A DNA stretch of 38,108 bases from a virus. Taxonomy: Duplodnaviria > Heunggongvirae > Uroviricota > Caudoviricetes. Positions 3,615 through 34,767 of the stretch are shown in pieces (the first letter of the stretch is position 1; each line of letters starts with the position of its first letter). The stretch lies in the IMG/VR virus record IMGVR_UViG_2563366933_000009, positions 1 through 38,108 of that record; one strand, 5' to 3'. The notes beneath the pieces are model-generated. The model made no database searches. It saw nothing but the letters and a program-made list of their open reading frames with translations, and was not told the origin of the DNA. The translations under genes and the position numbers were made by a program.

Positions 3615-4343
3615 TTACGCCACATTTGAGCCATGTAGCAGGTGTTGTAGTGCTTTAACGCCTTCAGAATTGTAACGGAACGCCTCTACCTGTTTGCTGG
3701 AATGCGCCGATTTATCCAGGAAGAACTTCCCGTACTGCTCAGTTTTGAGGTTGTTTGCGTTAGCAATGCGACCAATCTTGTTGGCCGTTACTCCAAGCTG
3801 CTCTGCAACCTCCCCTGCTGAGTAGTAATGCTCTTCTATTGCCGGAAGAGGTATTGCATTAAAACCAACAAGCGGGTTGATTATACTTGCTGCCGCTGTC
3901 TGCTTTGCCTCAGGCGCAAGATTTGGCATCAGATCGAACAGATTGGTAACAGCTTCAACCGTCATTTTCAATGTTCGCGCTTGACGATACTCAACAAGTC
4001 CACTCGCTGATTTACCGCTTTTAATGTGCGCTTCTTGCATACTTTCAAGTTGGTCTACCAGTGAGCGGCGAACGGCTTTTGACTCGCGAGCGGCAACTCG
4101 CAATGCTTGCTTGATTGACATCTCAATGATAACCATCGAAGTTTTGTTCGCTTTTTGCACTACACTTTTTGTGTAGTGCTCTCCATCCAATTCATCTTCA
4201 ATTTTCTCGATGAATTTGTTATTACGAACCTCCGGCTCACCGCACTGTCTACGAGCCTGATTTACCATCTCAAGCAGGCGCTGGCTGTCAATGGTTTTAT
4301 CCGTGACAACGGATCCGATGTTTGCTACATTCTTAAAAGTCAT
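3615..4343 (-). CDS. Antirepressor-like protein, KilAC-type C-terminal domain
   Basis: Start taken at internal Met (MTFKNVANIG) with AAGGAA Shine-Dalgarno; C-terminal region has the HTH-like motif seen in phage antirepressor KilAC domains; lies in the ant position of an immI-like cluster. Confidence 0.65.
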   Translation of the reverse strand: MTFKNVANIGSVVTDKTIDSQRLLEMVNQARRQCGEPEVRNNKFIEKIEDELDGEHYTKSVVQKANKTSMVIIEMSIKQALRVAARESKAVRRSLVDQLESMQEAHIKSGKSASGLVEYRQARTLKMTVEAVTNLFDLMPNLAPEAKQTAAASIINPLVGFNAIPLPAIEEHYYSAGEVAEQLGVTANKIGRIANANNLKTEQYGKFFLDKSAHSSKQVEAFRYNSEGVKALQHLLHGSNVA

Positions 4344-4412: not shown

Positions 4413-4431
4413 GCGCCGTCCGGCGCACCAA

Positions 4432-30055: not shown

Positions 30056-30742
30056 ATGGATAAATACGAACAAAGACGACTAAGGCTGATAGAGATAAGA
30101 GACCGATTCTGTAATGGAAAGGCCTCAGAGTTGGCTCGTCGAATAGAAAGGGAACCATCATACGTTTCCAGAATGCTGTATCCGGAAGGAAAAAGCGGAA
30201 AAAAACGCATTGCTGACGATATGATGGAGCTAATTGAAAAATCTTTTAATCTCCCACGCGGATGGATGGACATGCTTGCAGATGGTAAAGCTGGAGCTAC
30301 GGACCATCTTGAGTTTGCGGGTAACGTTCGTGCGGGTTTTGTTCCGGTAATTGGTGAAGCCGTTTTGGGAGTTGATGGCTCAGTGGATATGATTGAATTC
30401 AGATCCGGTTGGTTAAGCATCTACAGCGGCGATAAAGATGCTTACGGTCTGAAGGTTAAGGGTGACAGCATGTGGCCAAGGATTCAGTCAGGAGAATATG
30501 TTGTTATTGAACCAAATACGCCAGTACATCCAGGTGATGAAGTCTTTGTAAGGACCAAAGACGGTCACAACATGATAAAGATCATGAACAAAACAAGAGA
30601 CGGTGATTATCAGTTTAGTAGCATAAACAGTGATCACCGCCCAATCACTCTTCCTGTTGAAGAAGTTGATAAAATGCATTTTGTTTCAGCTATTGTGAAA
30701 CACACCAGGTACGTAGACCAGGACGATCTGCCAAAAGTTTGA
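30056..30742 (+). CDS. cI: CI-like prophage repressor (HTH plus S24 LexA-like autopeptidase domain)
   Basis: 228 aa; C-terminal GDSMWPRI...GEYVVIEP...GDEVFVR...KIM signature of S24 peptidase-type repressors. Confidence 0.9.
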   Translation: MDKYEQRRLRLIEIRDRFCNGKASELARRIEREPSYVSRMLYPEGKSGKKRIADDMMELIEKSFNLPRGWMDMLADGKAGATDHLEFAGNVRAGFVPVIGEAVLGVDGSVDMIEFRSGWLSIYSGDKDAYGLKVKGDSMWPRIQSGEYVVIEPNTPVHPGDEVFVRTKDGHNMIKIMNKTRDGDYQFSSINSDHRPITLPVEEVDKMHFVSAIVKHTRYVDQDDLPKV

Positions 30743-31053
30743 GGATAAAGCAGCAAATGTTTATACCCGGCATAGTAGTCGCTGTTGTAATCATCTGCTT
30801 CATATGGGCAAAGTTATCTCCTGTAAGCTCTAAGCATACAGCTGAACTCATGAGGAAGAAGCATCTTATACATGAGGCAGAATCGATAATTAAAAAGTTC
30901 AAAGGCATGTCATACGACGACATGTCATCAGAGCAGATTGCTATGTATAAATGCGCCATTGAGCGCCTTGACTACTTAAACGGACTCAAACCCAAACACA
31001 CCCCAGTAGAATCAAAATTGCCGCAATGGCCAAGCAATCCAAATAGCTTCTGA
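30739..31053 (+). CDS. Small single-pass membrane protein co-transcribed with cI (Rex-position gene), paralog of 5739-6059; function unknown
   Basis: ATGA-type overlap with the cI stop; hydrophobic N-terminus IPGIVVAVVIICFIWA; YKCAIERL motif shared with 5739-6059; followed by an intrinsic terminator. Confidence 0.6.
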   Translation: MRIKQQMFIPGIVVAVVIICFIWAKLSPVSSKHTAELMRKKHLIHEAESIIKKFKGMSYDDMSSEQIAMYKCAIERLDYLNGLKPKHTPVESKLPQWPSNPNSF

Positions 31054-31064
31054 CATCTCCTTTC

Positions 31065-31088
31065 AGCCCGCAAAGCGGGCTTTTTTAT
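31065..31088 (+). terminator. Intrinsic terminator ending the cI operon
   Basis: Stem AGCCCGC/GCGGGCT with AAA loop followed by TTTTTTAT. Confidence 0.6.
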
Positions 31089-31106
31089 ATCAATCCAAAA
31101 AATTAA

Positions 31107-31191
31107 TTACCTGAAAATTCAATCAGGTAAACTCTCACATCAATTTTATTTACCTACAGGTATAGACAGAGGTTTTACCTGTAGGTATATT
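31107..31191. promoter_or_regulatory. OL operator region and PL-like promoter
   Basis: Dyad sites TTACCTGA..TCAGGTAA, TTACCTACAGGTA and TTACCTGTAGGTA of the same family as OR; -35 TAGACA, 17-bp spacer, -10 TATATT reading toward N. Confidence 0.55.
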
Positions 31192-31232
31192 TTAAGCCAT
31201 CAGCAGGACGCACTGACCACCATTGAAGGTGA

Positions 31233-31263
31233 CGCTCTTAAAAATTAAGCCCTGAAGAAGGGC
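31233..31263 (+). promoter_or_regulatory. nutL (boxA CGCTCTTAA, boxB GCCCTGAAGAAGGGC)
   Basis: Matches lambda nutL boxA and boxB, upstream of the N gene. Confidence 0.8.
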
Positions 31264-31461
31264 AGCATTCAAAGCAGAAGGCTTTGGGATTGGATGAATG
31301 AGCAGGCTGATGCTCGACCAATGTATAAACAGCGCTCATGGCAAGCAGTAACCAATCTGCGCCTCAAGACAGCGTCACTGGTAGTGCGGGCGCTCTAACC
31401 AGTAAGCCGGGGTTCAGCGCCGGCCATCCAATCACCAAAGCTAACTGACAGGAGAATCCAG

Positions 31462-31788
31462 ATGGATGCACAAACACGCCGCCGCGAACGTCGCGCAGAG
31501 AAACAGGCTCAATGGAAAGCAGCAAATCCCCTGTTGGTTGGGGTAAGCGCAAAACCAGTTAACCGCCCTATTCTCTCGCTGAATCGCAAACCGAAATCAC
31601 GAGTAGAAAGCGCACTGAATCCGATAGACCTTACGGTGCTGGCTGAATACCACGAACAGATTGAAAGCAACCTGCAGCGTATTGAGCGCAAGAATCAGCG
31701 CACATGGTACAGCAAGCCACGCAGTGAAATGGGTGTGACTTGTGTTGGTCGCCAGAAAATGAAATTAGGCAGCAAACCACTTATTTGA
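31462..31788 (+). CDS. N: Antitermination protein N (lambda-type)
   Basis: MDAQTRRRERRAEKQAQWKAANPLLVGVSAKPVNRPILSLNRKPKSRVESALNPIDLTVLAEY... is near-identical to lambda N. Confidence 0.95.
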   Translation: MDAQTRRRERRAEKQAQWKAANPLLVGVSAKPVNRPILSLNRKPKSRVESALNPIDLTVLAEYHEQIESNLQRIERKNQRTWYSKPRSEMGVTCVGRQKMKLGSKPLI

Positions 31789-31796
31789 GGTGAGAT

Positions 31797-32060
31797 ATGG
31801 ACAAGAAAATTAAATCATTGAAGCCAGGAATTGTTATCAGAGACATAAGTGGTGATTACGATACAGAGACATATGATATTTTATATGTGCATGCAGATGG
31901 AAAATGTCAGTATTCGAACGACATTTTTAATAATAAAGGTGGTGCCGAAATTGCTGCCACCACAGTTAATAAAGAGTTAGTAGCTAACGAGTCGTGGGAT
32001 TATTTTATGCCATCATCCACTTCTATGAACTGGAAAGTGGTTTTGTACATTCCATCATAA
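31797..32060 (+). CDS. Hypothetical protein (AT-rich accessory gene after N)
   Basis: 87-aa ORF with markedly AT-rich codon usage relative to flanking genes; occupies the ral/ea-like position. Confidence 0.5.
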   Translation: MDKKIKSLKPGIVIRDISGDYDTETYDILYVHADGKCQYSNDIFNNKGGAEIAATTVNKELVANESWDYFMPSSTSMNWKVVLYIPS

Positions 32061-32244
32061 TTGTAGCTGCCGTTCAAAAATGAAAGTAAATCTAACATCA
32101 CAGGCCGCATACTCAGCCTTTATTTTTGGCATAAACAAGAGAATAAACACTGCACTGTGTATTCATTCCAACGAGTGAATACACGGAGCAATGTCGCTCG
32201 TAACTAAACAGGAGCCGACTTGTTCTGATTATTGGAAATCTTCT

Positions 32245-32272
32245 TTGCCCTCCGATGTGAGGGCAATTTTTT
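32245..32272 (+). terminator. Intrinsic terminator (tL1-like)
   Basis: Perfect 8-bp stem TTGCCCTC/GAGGGCAA with 6-nt loop followed by TTTTTT. Confidence 0.6.
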
Positions 32273-32292
32273 ATCTATGAGGATATGAATAG

Positions 32293-32661
32293 ATGTCAAA
32301 CATCAAAAAATACATCATTGATTACGACTGGAAAGCATCAATAGAAATTGAAATCGACCATGACGTAATGACAGAGGAAAAACTTCATCAGATTAATAAT
32401 TTCTGGTCAGGCTCTGAATACCGACTCAATAAACACGGCTCTGTATTAAATGCTGTATTAATCATGCTGGCGCAACATGCTCTGCTTATAGCAATTTCAA
32501 GCGACTTAAATGCATATGGTGTTGTGTGTGAGTTCGACTGGAATGATGGAAATGGTCAGGAAGGATGGCCTCCAATGGATGGTAGCGAAGGAATAAGAAT
32601 TACCGATATCGATACATCAGGAATATTTGATTCAGATGATATGGCTATCAAGGCCGCCTGA
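32293..32661 (+). CDS. Hypothetical acidic protein (moron-like ORF)
   Basis: 122-aa Asp/Glu-rich ORF, AT-rich, with a terminator upstream and a weaker hairpin plus T-run downstream; GAGGA Shine-Dalgarno. Confidence 0.55.
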   Translation: MSNIKKYIIDYDWKASIEIEIDHDVMTEEKLHQINNFWSGSEYRLNKHGSVLNAVLIMLAQHALLIAISSDLNAYGVVCEFDWNDGNGQEGWPPMDGSEGIRITDIDTSGIFDSDDMAIKAA

Positions 32662-32737
32662 GTGCGGCTTTACCGCATACCAATAACGCTTCACTCGAGG
32701 CGTTTTTCGTTATGCAATCAAATATAAGGAGTTACCC

Positions 32738-32872
32738 ATGATGCACTTTCAGCTCGCGGGTAGCGGCGTCATGTCCGCTTTCTACCCGCACGAATCTGAA
32801 TTATCACGCCGAGTTAAACAATTAATCAGAGCAGCAAAGAAACAACTGGAGGCGTTATGCGCAATGAAATAG
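32738..32872 (+). CDS. cIII: cIII-like FtsH inhibitor peptide
   Basis: 44 aa (MMHFQLAGSGVMSAFYPHESELSRRVKQLIRAAKKQL...) with TAAGGAG Shine-Dalgarno; pattern resembles lambda CIII; below the ORF-track size cut-off. Confidence 0.55.
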   Translation: MMHFQLAGSGVMSAFYPHESELSRRVKQLIRAAKKQLEALCAMK

Positions 32873-33009
32873 CCATCAATCACCAGATGCTTCGTGCTGC
32901 ACAGAACAAAGCAGTAATAGCCAGATTTATTGGTGATTCCAAAATGTGGCTTGAAGCAAATAAAGCGATGAAATCAGCTATCAACCTTCCGTGGTATCGC
33001 AGGAAATGA
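32857..33009 (+). CDS. Kil-like small protein (tentative)
   Basis: 50 aa with IARFIGDSKMW...EA motif reminiscent of lambda Kil; TGGAGG Shine-Dalgarno; overlaps the cIII-like stop. Confidence 0.4.
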   Translation: MRNEIAINHQMLRAAQNKAVIARFIGDSKMWLEANKAMKSAINLPWYRRK

Positions 33010-33090
33010 GTTTTACAGATAACTGGTCAGACGAAGAATTCATTCGTCAGATGAACAAAATGCTCAATCAGCACAAAGAACAGGAGAAAG

Positions 33091-33402
33091 ATGATGATTC
33101 TGACTCTGAATGATAAGCGTGAAATATCGCAAATAATCGCAAGTTTTACTGATGAAGATTACGAGCGAATCAACAGTGAAGTTGATCGCCTCTGCAAACG
33201 TTGCGACCCAATAAGCGAAATGCTTCGCTCATATAAACCAGATGAACACACTAAGGACGCTATCGACTGGCTGGAAGATGATGACTGTAACTATCAGGAA
33301 AAAGCCGCTGAATGGTTCTGGGATGCAATAACCGAAAGAGTTAAGGCTGAATATGCCTTCGCAATATTCAAACGCAGACATATTTATGGAGAAGCTGCAT
33401 GA
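33091..33402 (+). CDS. Hypothetical acidic protein upstream of recT
   Basis: 103-aa ORF, ATGA-coupled to recT. Confidence 0.55.
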   Translation: MMILTLNDKREISQIIASFTDEDYERINSEVDRLCKRCDPISEMLRSYKPDEHTKDAIDWLEDDDCNYQEKAAEWFWDAITERVKAEYAFAIFKRRHIYGEAA

Positions 33403-34301
33403 GCAATATCGTTGAATTCGTTAAACAGCAAGAGCAGTTATTCTGCGGAGCATTGACTGAACAGACGGTGACATGGGCTAAGGAAAGCCAGTTTGCAATT
33501 CAGTATTTCCAGAAAAACGATTACCTGGCTAAAACAGCACTGGCAAATCCAACCAGCGCACAGAACGCCATCATCAATGTTGCGGCGATCGGCATCACCT
33601 TAAACCCGGCCAGCAAACTGGCTTATCTGGTTCCTCGCGACGGCATGGTGTGCCTTGATATCAGTTACATGGGATTACTTCATCTTGCGCAATCGACAGG
33701 ATCAATTAAGTGGGGGCAATGCAAACTGGTGTACTCAAACGACACCTATGAATCAAATGGCCTTGATTCAGCACCAACTCACAAATACAACGCATTTGGT
33801 GAACGAGGCTCTATTGTTGGTGGTTATTGCACGGTTAAAACAGCAGATGGTGACTACCTGACTGAAGAAATGAGTCTGGCAGAAATTAAAGCTGTGGAGG
33901 CAACGAGCAAGGCAAAGAATGGACCGTGGAAGACATTCTGGGAAGAGATGGCGCGTAAAACCATAGTTAAACGCGCCAGCAAATACTGGCCTAAAGCCCA
34001 GCGACTGGATAATGCCATTCACCTGCTTAACGAAGATGAAGGTATGCATCAGGAACCAGTTATGCCGCACAAATCAGAGGAAGATATCCGCGAAGATGAA
34101 CGAAAACGCCAGCAGGAAATAACGGATAAAGCACAACTTCTTTGTGATGAAATGGCTCAGGCAGAAAACATGGATGATTTGAAGCGATATTTTGCAGAAG
34201 CATATCGCCTGACATCTGGAATGAAATTGCAGCAGAACGTACAAGCCATTTACGCAGAATGCAAAGCTAAACTGGAGGTTGCCAGTGAGCAAACTGTATG
34301 A
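33399..34301 (+). CDS. recT: RecT-family single-strand annealing recombinase
   Basis: 300 aa; conserved RecT-like core recognised from the translation (recall of Rac-type RecT). Confidence 0.85.
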   Translation: MSNIVEFVKQQEQLFCGALTEQTVTWAKESQFAIQYFQKNDYLAKTALANPTSAQNAIINVAAIGITLNPASKLAYLVPRDGMVCLDISYMGLLHLAQSTGSIKWGQCKLVYSNDTYESNGLDSAPTHKYNAFGERGSIVGGYCTVKTADGDYLTEEMSLAEIKAVEATSKAKNGPWKTFWEEMARKTIVKRASKYWPKAQRLDNAIHLLNEDEGMHQEPVMPHKSEEDIREDERKRQQEITDKAQLLCDEMAQAENMDDLKRYFAEAYRLTSGMKLQQNVQAIYAECKAKLEVASEQTV

Positions 34302-34767
34302 AATTGCCAATGAATACGCAAAATTGATGGATTCAGATTTAGAACCAGAGATGATTGCTGACACAATAGAAGGCATGGAAGGAGAATTTACCGATAAAAT
34401 AGAGCAACTTCTTGCCATTATTAAAAATGAGTCTGGTTATGCTGAACGCCTCAAGAAAGAGGCAAAGTCACTGAATGAAAGAGCAGCAGTAATTCAAAAT
34501 AAGATTGATAGCATTATGACGTATATAGCGTCATCGCTTGAAATGGTTGGAAAGAAAAAGATTCGAGCAGGTATTCACCAGGTAACAATCCGCAAACCGT
34601 CAGAAACTGTAGAAATCATCGACTCAAGCGCCCTTCCTCCTGAATACGTTGAGTTCGAAACGACAATTAAAGCCGACAAACTGGCAATCAAACACCAACT
34701 AAAAGCAGGAATAAATATCCCCGGTGCTCAACTCAAAGTTGGGAAACCTTCACTTCTTATCAAATAA
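34285..34767 (+). CDS. Hypothetical protein downstream of recT (possibly Gp157-like)
   Basis: GTG start 6 nt after GGAGG; coiled-coil-rich 160-aa product; family assignment is tentative. Confidence 0.5.
   Translation: MSKLYEIANEYAKLMDSDLEPEMIADTIEGMEGEFTDKIEQLLAIIKNESGYAERLKKEAKSLNERAAVIQNKIDSIMTYIASSLEMVGKKKIRAGIHQVTIRKPSETVEIIDSSALPPEYVEFETTIKADKLAIKHQLKAGINIPGAQLKVGKPSLLIK

What the first reader, a model, noticed from the sequence alone, without database searches (positions are those of the whole stretch)
31797..32680. AT-rich accessory ORFs after N, one acidic and terminator-flanked: candidate anti-restriction or defence moron
The 87-aa and 122-aa ORFs are strikingly AT-rich compared with flanking lambda-like genes. 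The 122-aa ORF is Asp/Glu-rich and is bracketed by a strong terminator upstream and a hairpin with a T-run downstream, the classic moron signature. It occupies the PL-operon slot where lambda encodes ral; acidic small proteins here are often DNA mimics.
Basis: partly seen in the sequence, partly recalled or inferred. Interest (0 to 1): 0.6.

Follow-up and report, generated by a model that had tools for sequence, protein, structure and literature searches.

The report
Lambda ea10, PreS sRNA, orphan early gene
The acidic, terminator-flanked ORF is bacteriophage lambda's own long-known early gene ea10, and its upstream terminator is the end of the described sRNA PreS. Only the 87-aa ORF just after N is unusual: it is a rare early gene of unknown function that sits where lambda has sieB and ral.

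Summary
The sequence features are real, but most are already known. ORF122 (32293-32661) is lambda Ea10: 120/122 aa identical, Pfam DUF2528. Window 32116-32714 is 98.2% identical to lambda DNA and starts just past lambda's ral stop.

The "strong terminator" (32245-32272) is lambda tL2a. A 2024 preprint shows that tL2a is the 3' end of the Hfq-dependent sRNA LPR1/PreS, which raises host dnaN translation. PreS is conserved here.

No promoter-like site lies between PL and ea10, so neither ORF is an autonomous moron. ORF87 sits upstream of the first intrinsic terminator, so I infer it is made together with N. Ea10 needs N-dependent read-through of tL2a.

ea10 is still a discrete optional cassette: relatives lack exactly 32275-32674. 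It is not in the ral slot; ORF87 is.

ORF87 (phrog_33140) is rare: 8 of 5426 complete E. coli genomes. It has no Pfam, NCBIfam or PADLOC match and no fold match. Its distant homologues are in enterobacterial prophage early regions and in virulent Klebsiella myophages.

Verdict: mostly known, low interest.

The parts
31163..31191 (+). PL-like promoter (TAGACA-17-TATATT) of this phage's immunity region. The inferred transcript start is about 31199.
   Evidence: Promoter scan. Homology to lambda starts at 31198, which matches lambda's PL start region (L001 1307). Assignment is inferred.
31249..31263 (+). nutL boxB (GCCCTGAAGAAGGGC), the N-utilisation site
   Evidence: Window 31198-31288 is 98.9% identical to lambda L001 1307-1396, which contains the annotated nutL. 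The scan mis-flagged it as a minus-strand terminator.
31462..31788 (+). N antitermination protein (108 aa)
   Evidence: Pfam N36 1.5e-26 and phrog_271. It is 93.7% nt identical to lambda N up to 31763.
31797..32060 (+). ORF87, an orphan early gene (phrog_33140). It starts 8 nt after the N stop, and its SD-like GAGGTGAG overlaps that stop. It replaces lambda sieB-orf28-ral.
31764..32115 (+). The non-lambda mosaic module that carries ORF87. Its right joint is a conserved ~45-bp sequence shared with the lambda sequence just past the ral stop.
   Evidence: BLAST breakpoints against lambda and against E. coli SCU-124; alignment A3; IMG/VR loci
32185..32272 (+). PreS/LPR1 Hfq-dependent sRNA. The 5' end is approximate: it is placed by counting the ~88 nt reported for lambda back from the terminator.
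   Evidence: Alignment columns 101-200 are identical to the lambda ral-ea10 intergenic region. The fold gives a stem, a single-stranded stretch, the terminator hairpin and a U-tail, z = -4.2. The lambda sRNA is described in bioRxiv 10.1101/2024.10.31.621285.
32245..32272 (+). Intrinsic terminator tL2a (8-bp GC-rich stem, 6-nt loop, T6). It is the first intrinsic terminator downstream of PL in this window.
   Evidence: It is named tL2a in the preprint.
32293..32661 (+). ea10 (Ea10, DUF2528; 122 aa, pI 4.3). SD GAGGA at 32279-32283.
   Evidence: 120/122 aa identical to lambda Ea10. Pfam PF10800 8.4e-47 and phrog_646. AF2 model pLDDT 95.2.
32275..32674 (+). The ea10 cassette as defined by presence or absence in relatives
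   Evidence: IMG/VR loci L018, L021 and L022 join window 32274 directly to 32675.
32685..32712 (+). Hairpin with a T-rich tail, between ea10 and cIII. It is a weak terminator-like element shared with lambda and is retained in relatives that lack ea10.
32738..32872 (+). cIII (44 aa, a non-lambda allele)
   Evidence: Pfam cIII 2e-30
32857..33009 (+). kil
   Evidence: Pfam Lambda_Kil 1.7e-20 and phrog_2055

Best explanation
The finding covers a mosaic stretch of the early-left (PL) operon of a lambdoid prophage. The order is PL, nutL, N, ORF87, PreS sRNA/tL2a, ea10, hairpin, cIII, kil.

Shown:
- ORF122 is lambda's Ea10 (DUF2528).
- The upstream terminator is lambda's tL2a, embedded in a conserved copy of the PreS/LPR1 sRNA.
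- ORF87 is an orphan gene that replaces sieB-orf28-ral.
- ea10 is an optional cassette bounded by the two hairpins.
- There is no promoter-like site inside the stretch.

Inferred expression logic. All of it is transcribed from PL, in the lytic programme only. ORF87 lies 8 nt after N and upstream of the first intrinsic terminator, so it should be made together with N as an immediate-early product. Transcripts that stop at tL2a would supply the PreS 3' end, which binds Hfq. In lambda, PreS raises host dnaN translation and helps phage DNA replication. N-modified polymerase would read through tL2a and make Ea10 as a delayed-early protein. Ea10 is reported as abundant in lambda.

Inferred functions, low certainty. 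I think ORF87 is most likely a lytic-cycle, host-directed protein, acting in counter-defence or host take-over. It is expressed first, it sits in the slot that holds ral and sieB in lambda, and it has homologues among the small early genes of obligately lytic Klebsiella myophages. I think Ea10 is most likely a soluble acidic protein that binds a specific host partner through its invariant EGWPxxDGSxG loop. It is less likely to be a generic DNA mimic. Its recurrence in the early regions of both lambdoid and Mu-like phages suggests the target is a widely conserved host function.
For: Identity of ea10: 120/122 aa identical to lambda Ea10, and window 32116-32714 is 98.2% identical to lambda. Pfam DUF2528 scores 158 bits against a cut-off of 22. 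The gene is found in 1479 of 5426 E. coli genomes, all at 95% identity or more.

tL2a and PreS: the preprint places LPR1 between ral and ea10 with its 3' end at tL2a. It reports that the sRNA is made only in the lytic cycle, binds Hfq and up-regulates dnaN. The window sequence is identical to lambda over alignment columns 101-200, differing only in the terminator loop and one closing base. The fold has z = -4.2.

No autonomous transcription: on the + strand the only promoter-like sites are at 31163 (PL) and at 33012 or beyond, and the only terminators are at 31065, 32245 and 32685. The N stop is 8 nt from the ORF87 ATG, and the tL2a T-run is 20 nt from the ea10 ATG.

Ea10 in lambda is an abundant early protein (PMC3961180). 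It is non-essential (PMC10695390; the ea10::IS10 phage is viable).

Cassette behaviour.

ORF87:
- It is the first gene after N in all four E. coli loci examined (of the 8 genomes that carry it), behind three different N alleles.
- The family has about 34 clusters among 5.8 billion proteins, all enterobacterial or from phages.
- Homologues lie in prophage early-left regions and in the virulent Klebsiella myophages KB57 and KpS8.
- The alignment has a conserved core and the AF2 model has pLDDT 90.

Distant DUF2528 members lie directly after MuA/MuB-like genes and close to Mu Gam in Mu-like prophages.
Against: No biochemical function is established for either protein, so the functional parts are inference from position and timing.

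Rho-dependent termination within or after ORF87 cannot be excluded by sequence, so the immediate-early status is not proven.

The PreS 5' end and its expression in this phage are not measured. PreS is documented only in a preprint that I could read.

ORF87 homologues are not always the first gene after N in more distant prophages.

Ea10 is consistently acidic across the family (net -9 to -20). That would also fit nucleic-acid mimicry.
Confidence: 0.85

Rival explanations
1. The acidic 122-aa protein is a DNA-mimic anti-restriction protein, carried as a terminator-insulated moron.
For: It is acidic in every family member examined (net -9 to -20, acidic fraction 15-22%). It is a discrete AT-rich cassette. 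It is an early, non-essential gene next to the ral slot. Its function is unknown.
Confidence: 0.1
2. ORF87 is a lysogen-protective exclusion or defence gene, a functional stand-in for sieB, rather than a lytic-cycle gene.
For: It replaces the segment that carries sieB in lambda. The N-cIII interval is a hypervariable accessory hotspot in which different orphan genes replace one another.
Against: There is no promoter-like site of its own, and it starts 8 nt after N on the repressed PL transcript. It has no PADLOC hit. It is a small soluble 87-aa protein, not a membrane protein like SieB. Homologues occur in obligately lytic Klebsiella myophages.
Confidence: 0.08
3. Ea10 is a free SPFH-like domain that engages the host HflK/C-FtsH complex. 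In that way it would tune cII/cIII stability alongside its neighbour cIII.
Confidence: 0.07
4. Ea10 is a single-stranded-DNA-binding protein, as the legacy GenBank label 'ssb' says.
For: The label 'ea10 (ssb;122)' is in J02459, and several database names repeat it. The gene lies in the recombination/replication arm of the PL operon, and near Gam in Mu-like phages.
Confidence: 0.05

Closest known systems
Bacteriophage lambda Ea10 (lambdap45; Pfam PF10800 DUF2528; phrog_646)
   Same: It is 120/122 aa identical, with 98.2% identical DNA that includes both flanking hairpins. Its position between tL2a and cIII and its length are the same.
   Different: There are two substitutions (G40 for D, A118 for T). 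Here the downstream cIII is a different allele, and the upstream neighbour is ORF87 instead of ral.
Lambda PreS/LPR1 sRNA with terminator tL2a (Silverman et al., bioRxiv 10.1101/2024.10.31.621285)
   Same: Same location immediately upstream of ea10. The sequence is identical over alignment columns 101-200, upstream of the terminator hairpin. It has the same terminator hairpin with a U-tail.
   Different: There are two base changes in the terminator loop and one at the closing pair. Upstream context is ORF87 rather than ral. Expression and dnaN regulation were not tested for this phage.
Lambda Ral / SieB (the genes normally found between N and tL2a)
   Same: ORF87 occupies the same slot in the PL operon. 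ORF87 and Ral are both small early proteins (87 and 66 aa).
   Different: There is no sequence relationship. The hhalign comparison of the ORF87 family profile with lambda Ral gives probability 0.3%, and ORF87 has no Pfam hit. Unlike ral in lambda, ORF87 lies upstream of every intrinsic terminator, directly coupled to N.
Morons of lambdoid phages (autonomous promoter-gene-terminator insertions, as defined for HK97/HK022; from memory)
   Same: Deviant AT-rich composition. Presence/absence polymorphism between otherwise collinear relatives. A hairpin at the 3' side.
   Different: It has no promoter of its own. The 5' terminator belongs to a separate conserved element, PreS/tL2a. Expression is expected only from PL in the lytic programme.
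Uncharacterised protein KB57_201 of Klebsiella phage vB_KpnM_KB57 (Mydovirus) and phrog_33140
   Same: It is the only viral structural or sequence relative of ORF87: 42% identity, Foldseek E 1.2e-6, TM 0.77-0.80.
   Different: It belongs to a virulent 143-kb myophage, where it lies within a run of small hypothetical genes. Its function is also unknown.

Membership tests
Ea10 / DUF2528 (PF10800) | Full-length match to the family HMM above the curated cut-off | tested here: met
   158.4 bits against a cut-off of 22; residues 16-119 match profile positions 1-104 of 104. phrog_646 9e-70.
Ea10 / DUF2528 (PF10800) | Orthology to lambda ea10: near-identity and conserved position between tL2a and cIII | tested here: met
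   120/122 aa identical; 98.2% nt identity across 32116-32714.
PreS/LPR1 sRNA | Sequence of the lambda ral-ea10 intergenic sRNA, including the unpaired seed region | tested here: met
   Alignment A3 columns 101-200 are identical to lambda.
PreS/LPR1 sRNA | Rho-independent terminator hairpin with a U-tail (the Hfq-binding 3' end, tL2a) | tested here: met
   8-bp stem at 32245-32266 followed by T6. Fold z = -4.2.
PreS/LPR1 sRNA | Lytic-cycle expression, Hfq binding and dnaN up-regulation | not testable with these tools
   Known for lambda only, from the preprint.
Moron (autonomous accessory transcription unit) | Its own promoter upstream of the gene | tested here: not met
   No sigma-70-like site on the + strand between 31191 and 33012. 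The gaps before the ORFs are 20 nt and 8 nt.
Moron (autonomous accessory transcription unit) | Terminator immediately downstream | tested here: inconclusive
   The hairpin at 32685-32704 with tail TTTCGTTATG passes the scan but is weak (z = -2.5). ORF87 has no terminator before tL2a.
Moron (autonomous accessory transcription unit) | Deviant composition, and insertion between genes that are adjacent in relatives | tested here: met
   GC 35-39% against 47%. The ea10 cassette is absent in L018, L021 and L022.
Ral restriction-alleviation family | Sequence homology to lambda Ral | tested here: not met
   hhalign of the ORF87 family profile against lambda Ral gives probability 0.3%. ORF87 has no Pfam hit and Ea10 hits only DUF2528.
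DNA-mimic anti-restriction proteins (Ocr, ArdA type) | Sequence or fold similarity to a known mimic | tested here: not met
DNA-mimic anti-restriction proteins (Ocr, ArdA type) | Dense surface array of carboxylates that imitates the DNA backbone | tested here: inconclusive
   Net charge is -13 (family -9 to -20), and only 8 acidic positions are conserved at 80% or more.
DNA-mimic anti-restriction proteins (Ocr, ArdA type) | Binding and inhibition of type I R-M enzymes | not testable with these tools
   Needs an experiment.
Known anti-phage defence systems (PADLOC-DB v2) | HMM match to any defence protein model | tested here: not met
   No hits at E <= 0.1 for ORF87, Ea10 or ORF104.
SSB / OB-fold ssDNA-binding proteins | OB-fold, or homology to an SSB family | tested here: not met
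SPFH / band-7 domain | Significant fold match to SPFH domains | tested here: inconclusive

The most novel reading that the evidence does not exclude
Ea10 is an abundant lambda early protein that has had no assigned function since the genome was sequenced. In the most novel reading, it is a free-standing SPFH-like domain that docks onto or disrupts the host HflK/C cage around FtsH. It would then act with its neighbour cIII to control cII and cIII turnover.

A second reading is less exotic and more probable, about 0.3. ORF87 would found a new family of immediate-early counter-defence proteins, shared by lambdoid prophages and virulent Klebsiella myophages.
Probability: 0.06. Interest if true: 0.65.

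Novelty: already known. Interest (0 to 1): 0.2.

Why it matters
As read by the first stage, it matters little. The eye-catching acidic, terminator-bracketed ORF is a textbook lambda gene. Its terminator is a described sRNA terminator, so this is not a new defence or anti-restriction moron.

Three smaller points remain useful:
- Ea10 is carried by about a quarter of complete E. coli genomes, and diverged copies occur in Mu-like prophages. Its function is still unknown. The confident model and the invariant EGWPxxDGSxG loop give a handle for partner screens.
- PreS/tL2a is kept even where ea10 or ral are swapped out. That supports the idea that the sRNA is the selected element at this spot.
- ORF87 is a very rare orphan placed where it should be made together with N. 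That position makes it a reasonable candidate for an anti-defence screen.

Tried and rejected
- Rfam (E <= 1) over 30900-33200 gave only sub-threshold chance hits. PreS is not in Rfam 15.
- PADLOC and NCBIfam gave nothing for ORF87 or Ea10.
- PDB sequence searches with single sequences and with family profiles found nothing below E 0.08.
- Foldseek against BFVD for ORF87 found only the KB57 homologue.
- The afdb50 library was not available.
- The exhaustive HMMER search gave ORF87 hits to long repetitive proteins (P0124, P0130-P0132). I rejected them. P0124 gives many 27-bit matches to a 'GTYDVTVTDANGC' repeat, so the total score is inflated by the repeats. P0130 and P0131 are low-complexity tandem repeats.
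- An exact search for the ORF87/lambda joint in species-representative genomes found nothing. A family search there found one relative, in Kosakonia.
- Literature searches for a function of Ea10 or DUF2528 found none. The lambda interactome supplement, as far as I read it, gave only the legacy 'putative ssDNA-binding' label and no partner. The lambda-host interactome paper is not in the library.
- The accessory genes next to ORF87 in other E. coli prophages (83, 67, 138, 156 and 322 aa) have no Pfam or PADLOC hits either.

Full report
OBSERVATION. They are AT-rich. ORF87 is 35.2% GC and ORF122 is 39.0%; the whole finding is 38.5%. The window is 47.1% and the preceding N gene is 50.2%. Among same-size sliding windows, ORF87 lies in the lowest 0.4%, ORF122 in the lowest 3% and the whole finding in the lowest 0.2%. 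ORF122 is acidic: 21 D+E against 8 K+R, pI 4.3. A strong intrinsic terminator lies upstream: stem 32245-32266 followed by T6, and the region folds with z = -4.2. A weaker hairpin with a T-rich tail lies downstream at 32685-32704 (z = -2.5).

WHAT THE REGION IS. The + strand here is the early-left (PL) operon of a lambdoid prophage.
- A cI-like LexA-family repressor gene (30056-30742) and a 104-aa ORF end at a terminator at 31065.
- Then come a PL-like promoter (31163-31191), nutL boxB (31249-31263) and N (31462-31788, Pfam N36).
- Then ORF87, an intergenic stretch, ORF122, cIII (32738-32872), kil (32857-33009), a 103-aa ORF, RecT and a Gp157-family gene.

ORF122 IS LAMBDA Ea10. BLAST against lambda shows three homologous blocks: the PL/nutL region, N up to 31763, and 32116-32714 at 98.2% identity. 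The last block starts six bases after the ral stop codon of lambda and runs to just before cIII. ORF122 is 120/122 aa identical to lambda Ea10. It matches Pfam DUF2528 (PF10800) at 158 bits (cut-off 22) and phrog_646. The gene is common. At 95% nucleotide identity or more it occurs in 1479 of 5426 complete E. coli genomes. The family has more than 100 clusters in Enterobacterales. In lambda it is non-essential (PMC10695390; the ea10::IS10 phage is viable, PMC2327257). It was historically seen as an abundant early protein that was first mistaken for Kil (PMC3961180). Its role is 'not fully understood'. The old GenBank label 'ssb' has no experimental support that I could find.

THE 'STRONG TERMINATOR' IS tL2a, THE END OF THE PreS sRNA. 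A 2024 preprint (bioRxiv 10.1101/2024.10.31.621285) maps an Hfq-bound sRNA, LPR1, renamed PreS, between ral and ea10 of lambda. It is about 88 nt long and is processed to about 68 nt. Its 3' end is the GC-rich hairpin and poly-U of terminator tL2a. The sRNA is made only in the lytic cycle, base-pairs with host mRNAs, raises dnaN translation and helps phage DNA replication. The window sequence is identical to lambda across alignment columns 101-200, upstream of the terminator hairpin. It differs only by two loop bases and one closing-pair base in the terminator. It folds into a stem, a single-stranded stretch and the terminator. Rfam 15 has no model for this sRNA. So the upstream 'bracket' of ORF122 is a separate, functional and already described element.

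NOT AN AUTONOMOUS MORON, BUT A CASSETTE. The tL2a T-run ends at 32272 and the ea10 ATG is at 32293. The 20 nt in between carry a GAGGA Shine-Dalgarno sequence and leave no room for a promoter. The consensus scan finds no + strand promoter-like site between PL (31163-31191) and 33012. Ea10 must therefore be made from PL by read-through of tL2a. That read-through is what N/nutL provide, and both are intact here. This expression logic is inferred, and it agrees with N-dependent early synthesis in lambda.

In three IMG/VR relatives (L018, L021, L022) the sequence runs from the tL2a T-run (window 32274) straight into window 32675. They lack exactly the ea10 cassette and keep both hairpins. PreS/tL2a is retained in every near-identical relative that extends that far, whether or not ea10 or the upstream genes are present.

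ORF87 IS THE REAL SUBSTITUTION. Window 31764-32115 has no counterpart in lambda. It replaces sieB, orf28 and ral. ORF87 starts 8 nt after the N stop codon, with an SD-like GAGGTGAG overlapping that stop. No intrinsic terminator lies between PL and tL2a. I therefore infer that ORF87 is co-transcribed with N before antitermination is established, which would make it an immediate-early gene.

ORF87 is rare:
- It occurs in 8 of 5426 complete E. coli genomes. In the four loci I examined it is the first gene after N, behind three different N alleles.
- It is absent from deposited lambdoid phage genomes.
- It has 11 near-identical and 17 diverged loci in IMG/VR.
- One relative appears among 185,579 species-representative genomes.
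- There are about 10 genuine clusters at 50% identity among 1.84 billion representatives, and 34 clusters in the profile search, all enterobacterial.

The right joint of the module is a ~45-bp sequence (GCCTTTATTTTTGGCATAAACAA.AGAATAAACACTGCACTG). It also follows the ral stop in lambda, and it is duplicated around an extra 156-aa gene in E. coli SCU-124. This is the kind of short shared joint expected where lambdoid modules are exchanged.

My best guess is a soluble early protein that binds a conserved host partner. I put a DNA-mimic anti-restriction role at about 0.1, an SPFH-type interaction with HflKC/FtsH at about 0.07 and ssDNA binding at about 0.05.

WHAT ORF87 MIGHT DO. The evidence is its position (the ral/sieB slot), its timing (with N, inferred), the lack of its own promoter, and its presence in obligately lytic phages. 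Together these favour a lytic-cycle, host-directed role, in counter-defence or host take-over, over a lysogen-protective defence role. This is inference only.

COMPARISON AND NOVELTY. ORF122, its flanking hairpins and the intergenic sRNA are known lambda elements, so membership is met for Ea10/DUF2528 and for PreS/tL2a. The moron definition fails on its key feature, an own promoter. The Ral, PADLOC-defence and SSB tests are not met. The DNA-mimic test is not met on homology and fold, inconclusive on charge pattern, and untested on R-M enzyme binding. SPFH is inconclusive. ORF87 is an uncharacterised orphan already clustered as phrog_33140. Overall the finding is already known and of low interest. 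What remains open is modest: the still-unknown function of Ea10 and the rare immediate-early ORF87.

Noticed in passing
window 30739-31053 (+), terminator 31065-31081: A 104-aa basic ORF (phrog_10450, unknown function, no Pfam or PADLOC hit) overlaps the end of the cI-like repressor gene, in the position of lambda rexA/rexB. A strong terminator follows it. Unlike ORF87 and ea10, it could be expressed in the lysogen together with the repressor, so it is a better candidate for a prophage exclusion gene.
   Followed up: partly
window 31249-31263: The consensus scan reports a minus-strand 'terminator' here. It is actually nutL boxB (GCCCTGAAGAAGGGC), inside a block 98.9% identical to lambda's PL-nutL region.
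   Followed up: yes
loci L011-L015 (Salmonella, Oceanobacter, Serratia): Diverged DUF2528/Ea10 homologues (about 40-50% identity) sit directly downstream of MuA-like (rve) and MuB-like (AAA_22) genes. In the Salmonella and Serratia loci they lie a few genes upstream of Mu Gam, in Mu-like transposable prophages. Ea10 is therefore not restricted to lambdoid PL operons.
   Followed up: partly
window 32108-32152; L001 about 2801-2845; L002 about 3874-3918 and 4413-4430: A conserved ~45-bp joint (GCCTTTATTTTTGGCATAAACAA.AGAATAAACACTGCACTG) follows the ral stop in lambda and follows ORF87 here. In E. coli SCU-124 it is partly duplicated on both sides of an extra 156-aa orphan gene. It looks like a recombination joint for swapping accessory genes upstream of PreS.
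   Followed up: partly
window 32158-32186: A perfect 9-bp inverted repeat (GTGTATTCA N10 TGAATACAC) lies just upstream of the inferred PreS 5' end and is shared with lambda. It may be a processing or structural element. I found no description of it in the text I read.
   Followed up: no
window 33091-33402 and 32991-33113: An acidic 103-aa ORF (phrog_3486, no Pfam or PADLOC hit) sits where lambda has gam, immediately upstream of RecT (33399-34301) and a Gp157-family gene (34279-34767). A 40-aa ORF with a very acidic C-terminus (…KDDDSDSE) lies between kil and this ORF.
   Followed up: no
loci L005, L006, L007, L002: The N-to-cIII interval of E. coli lambdoid prophages is a hypervariable set of orphan genes (83, 67, 138, 156 and 322 aa) with no Pfam or PADLOC matches. 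In two of the prophages examined, other genes replace ea10.
   Followed up: partly
protein P0124 (5511 aa): ORF87 residues 11-54 match, weakly and 21 times, a 74-residue repeat containing 'DLSGLSAGTYDVTVTDANGC' in a giant protein. Each match is only about 27 bits. I treated it as a repeat-inflated beta-hairpin resemblance and not as homology.
   Followed up: partly
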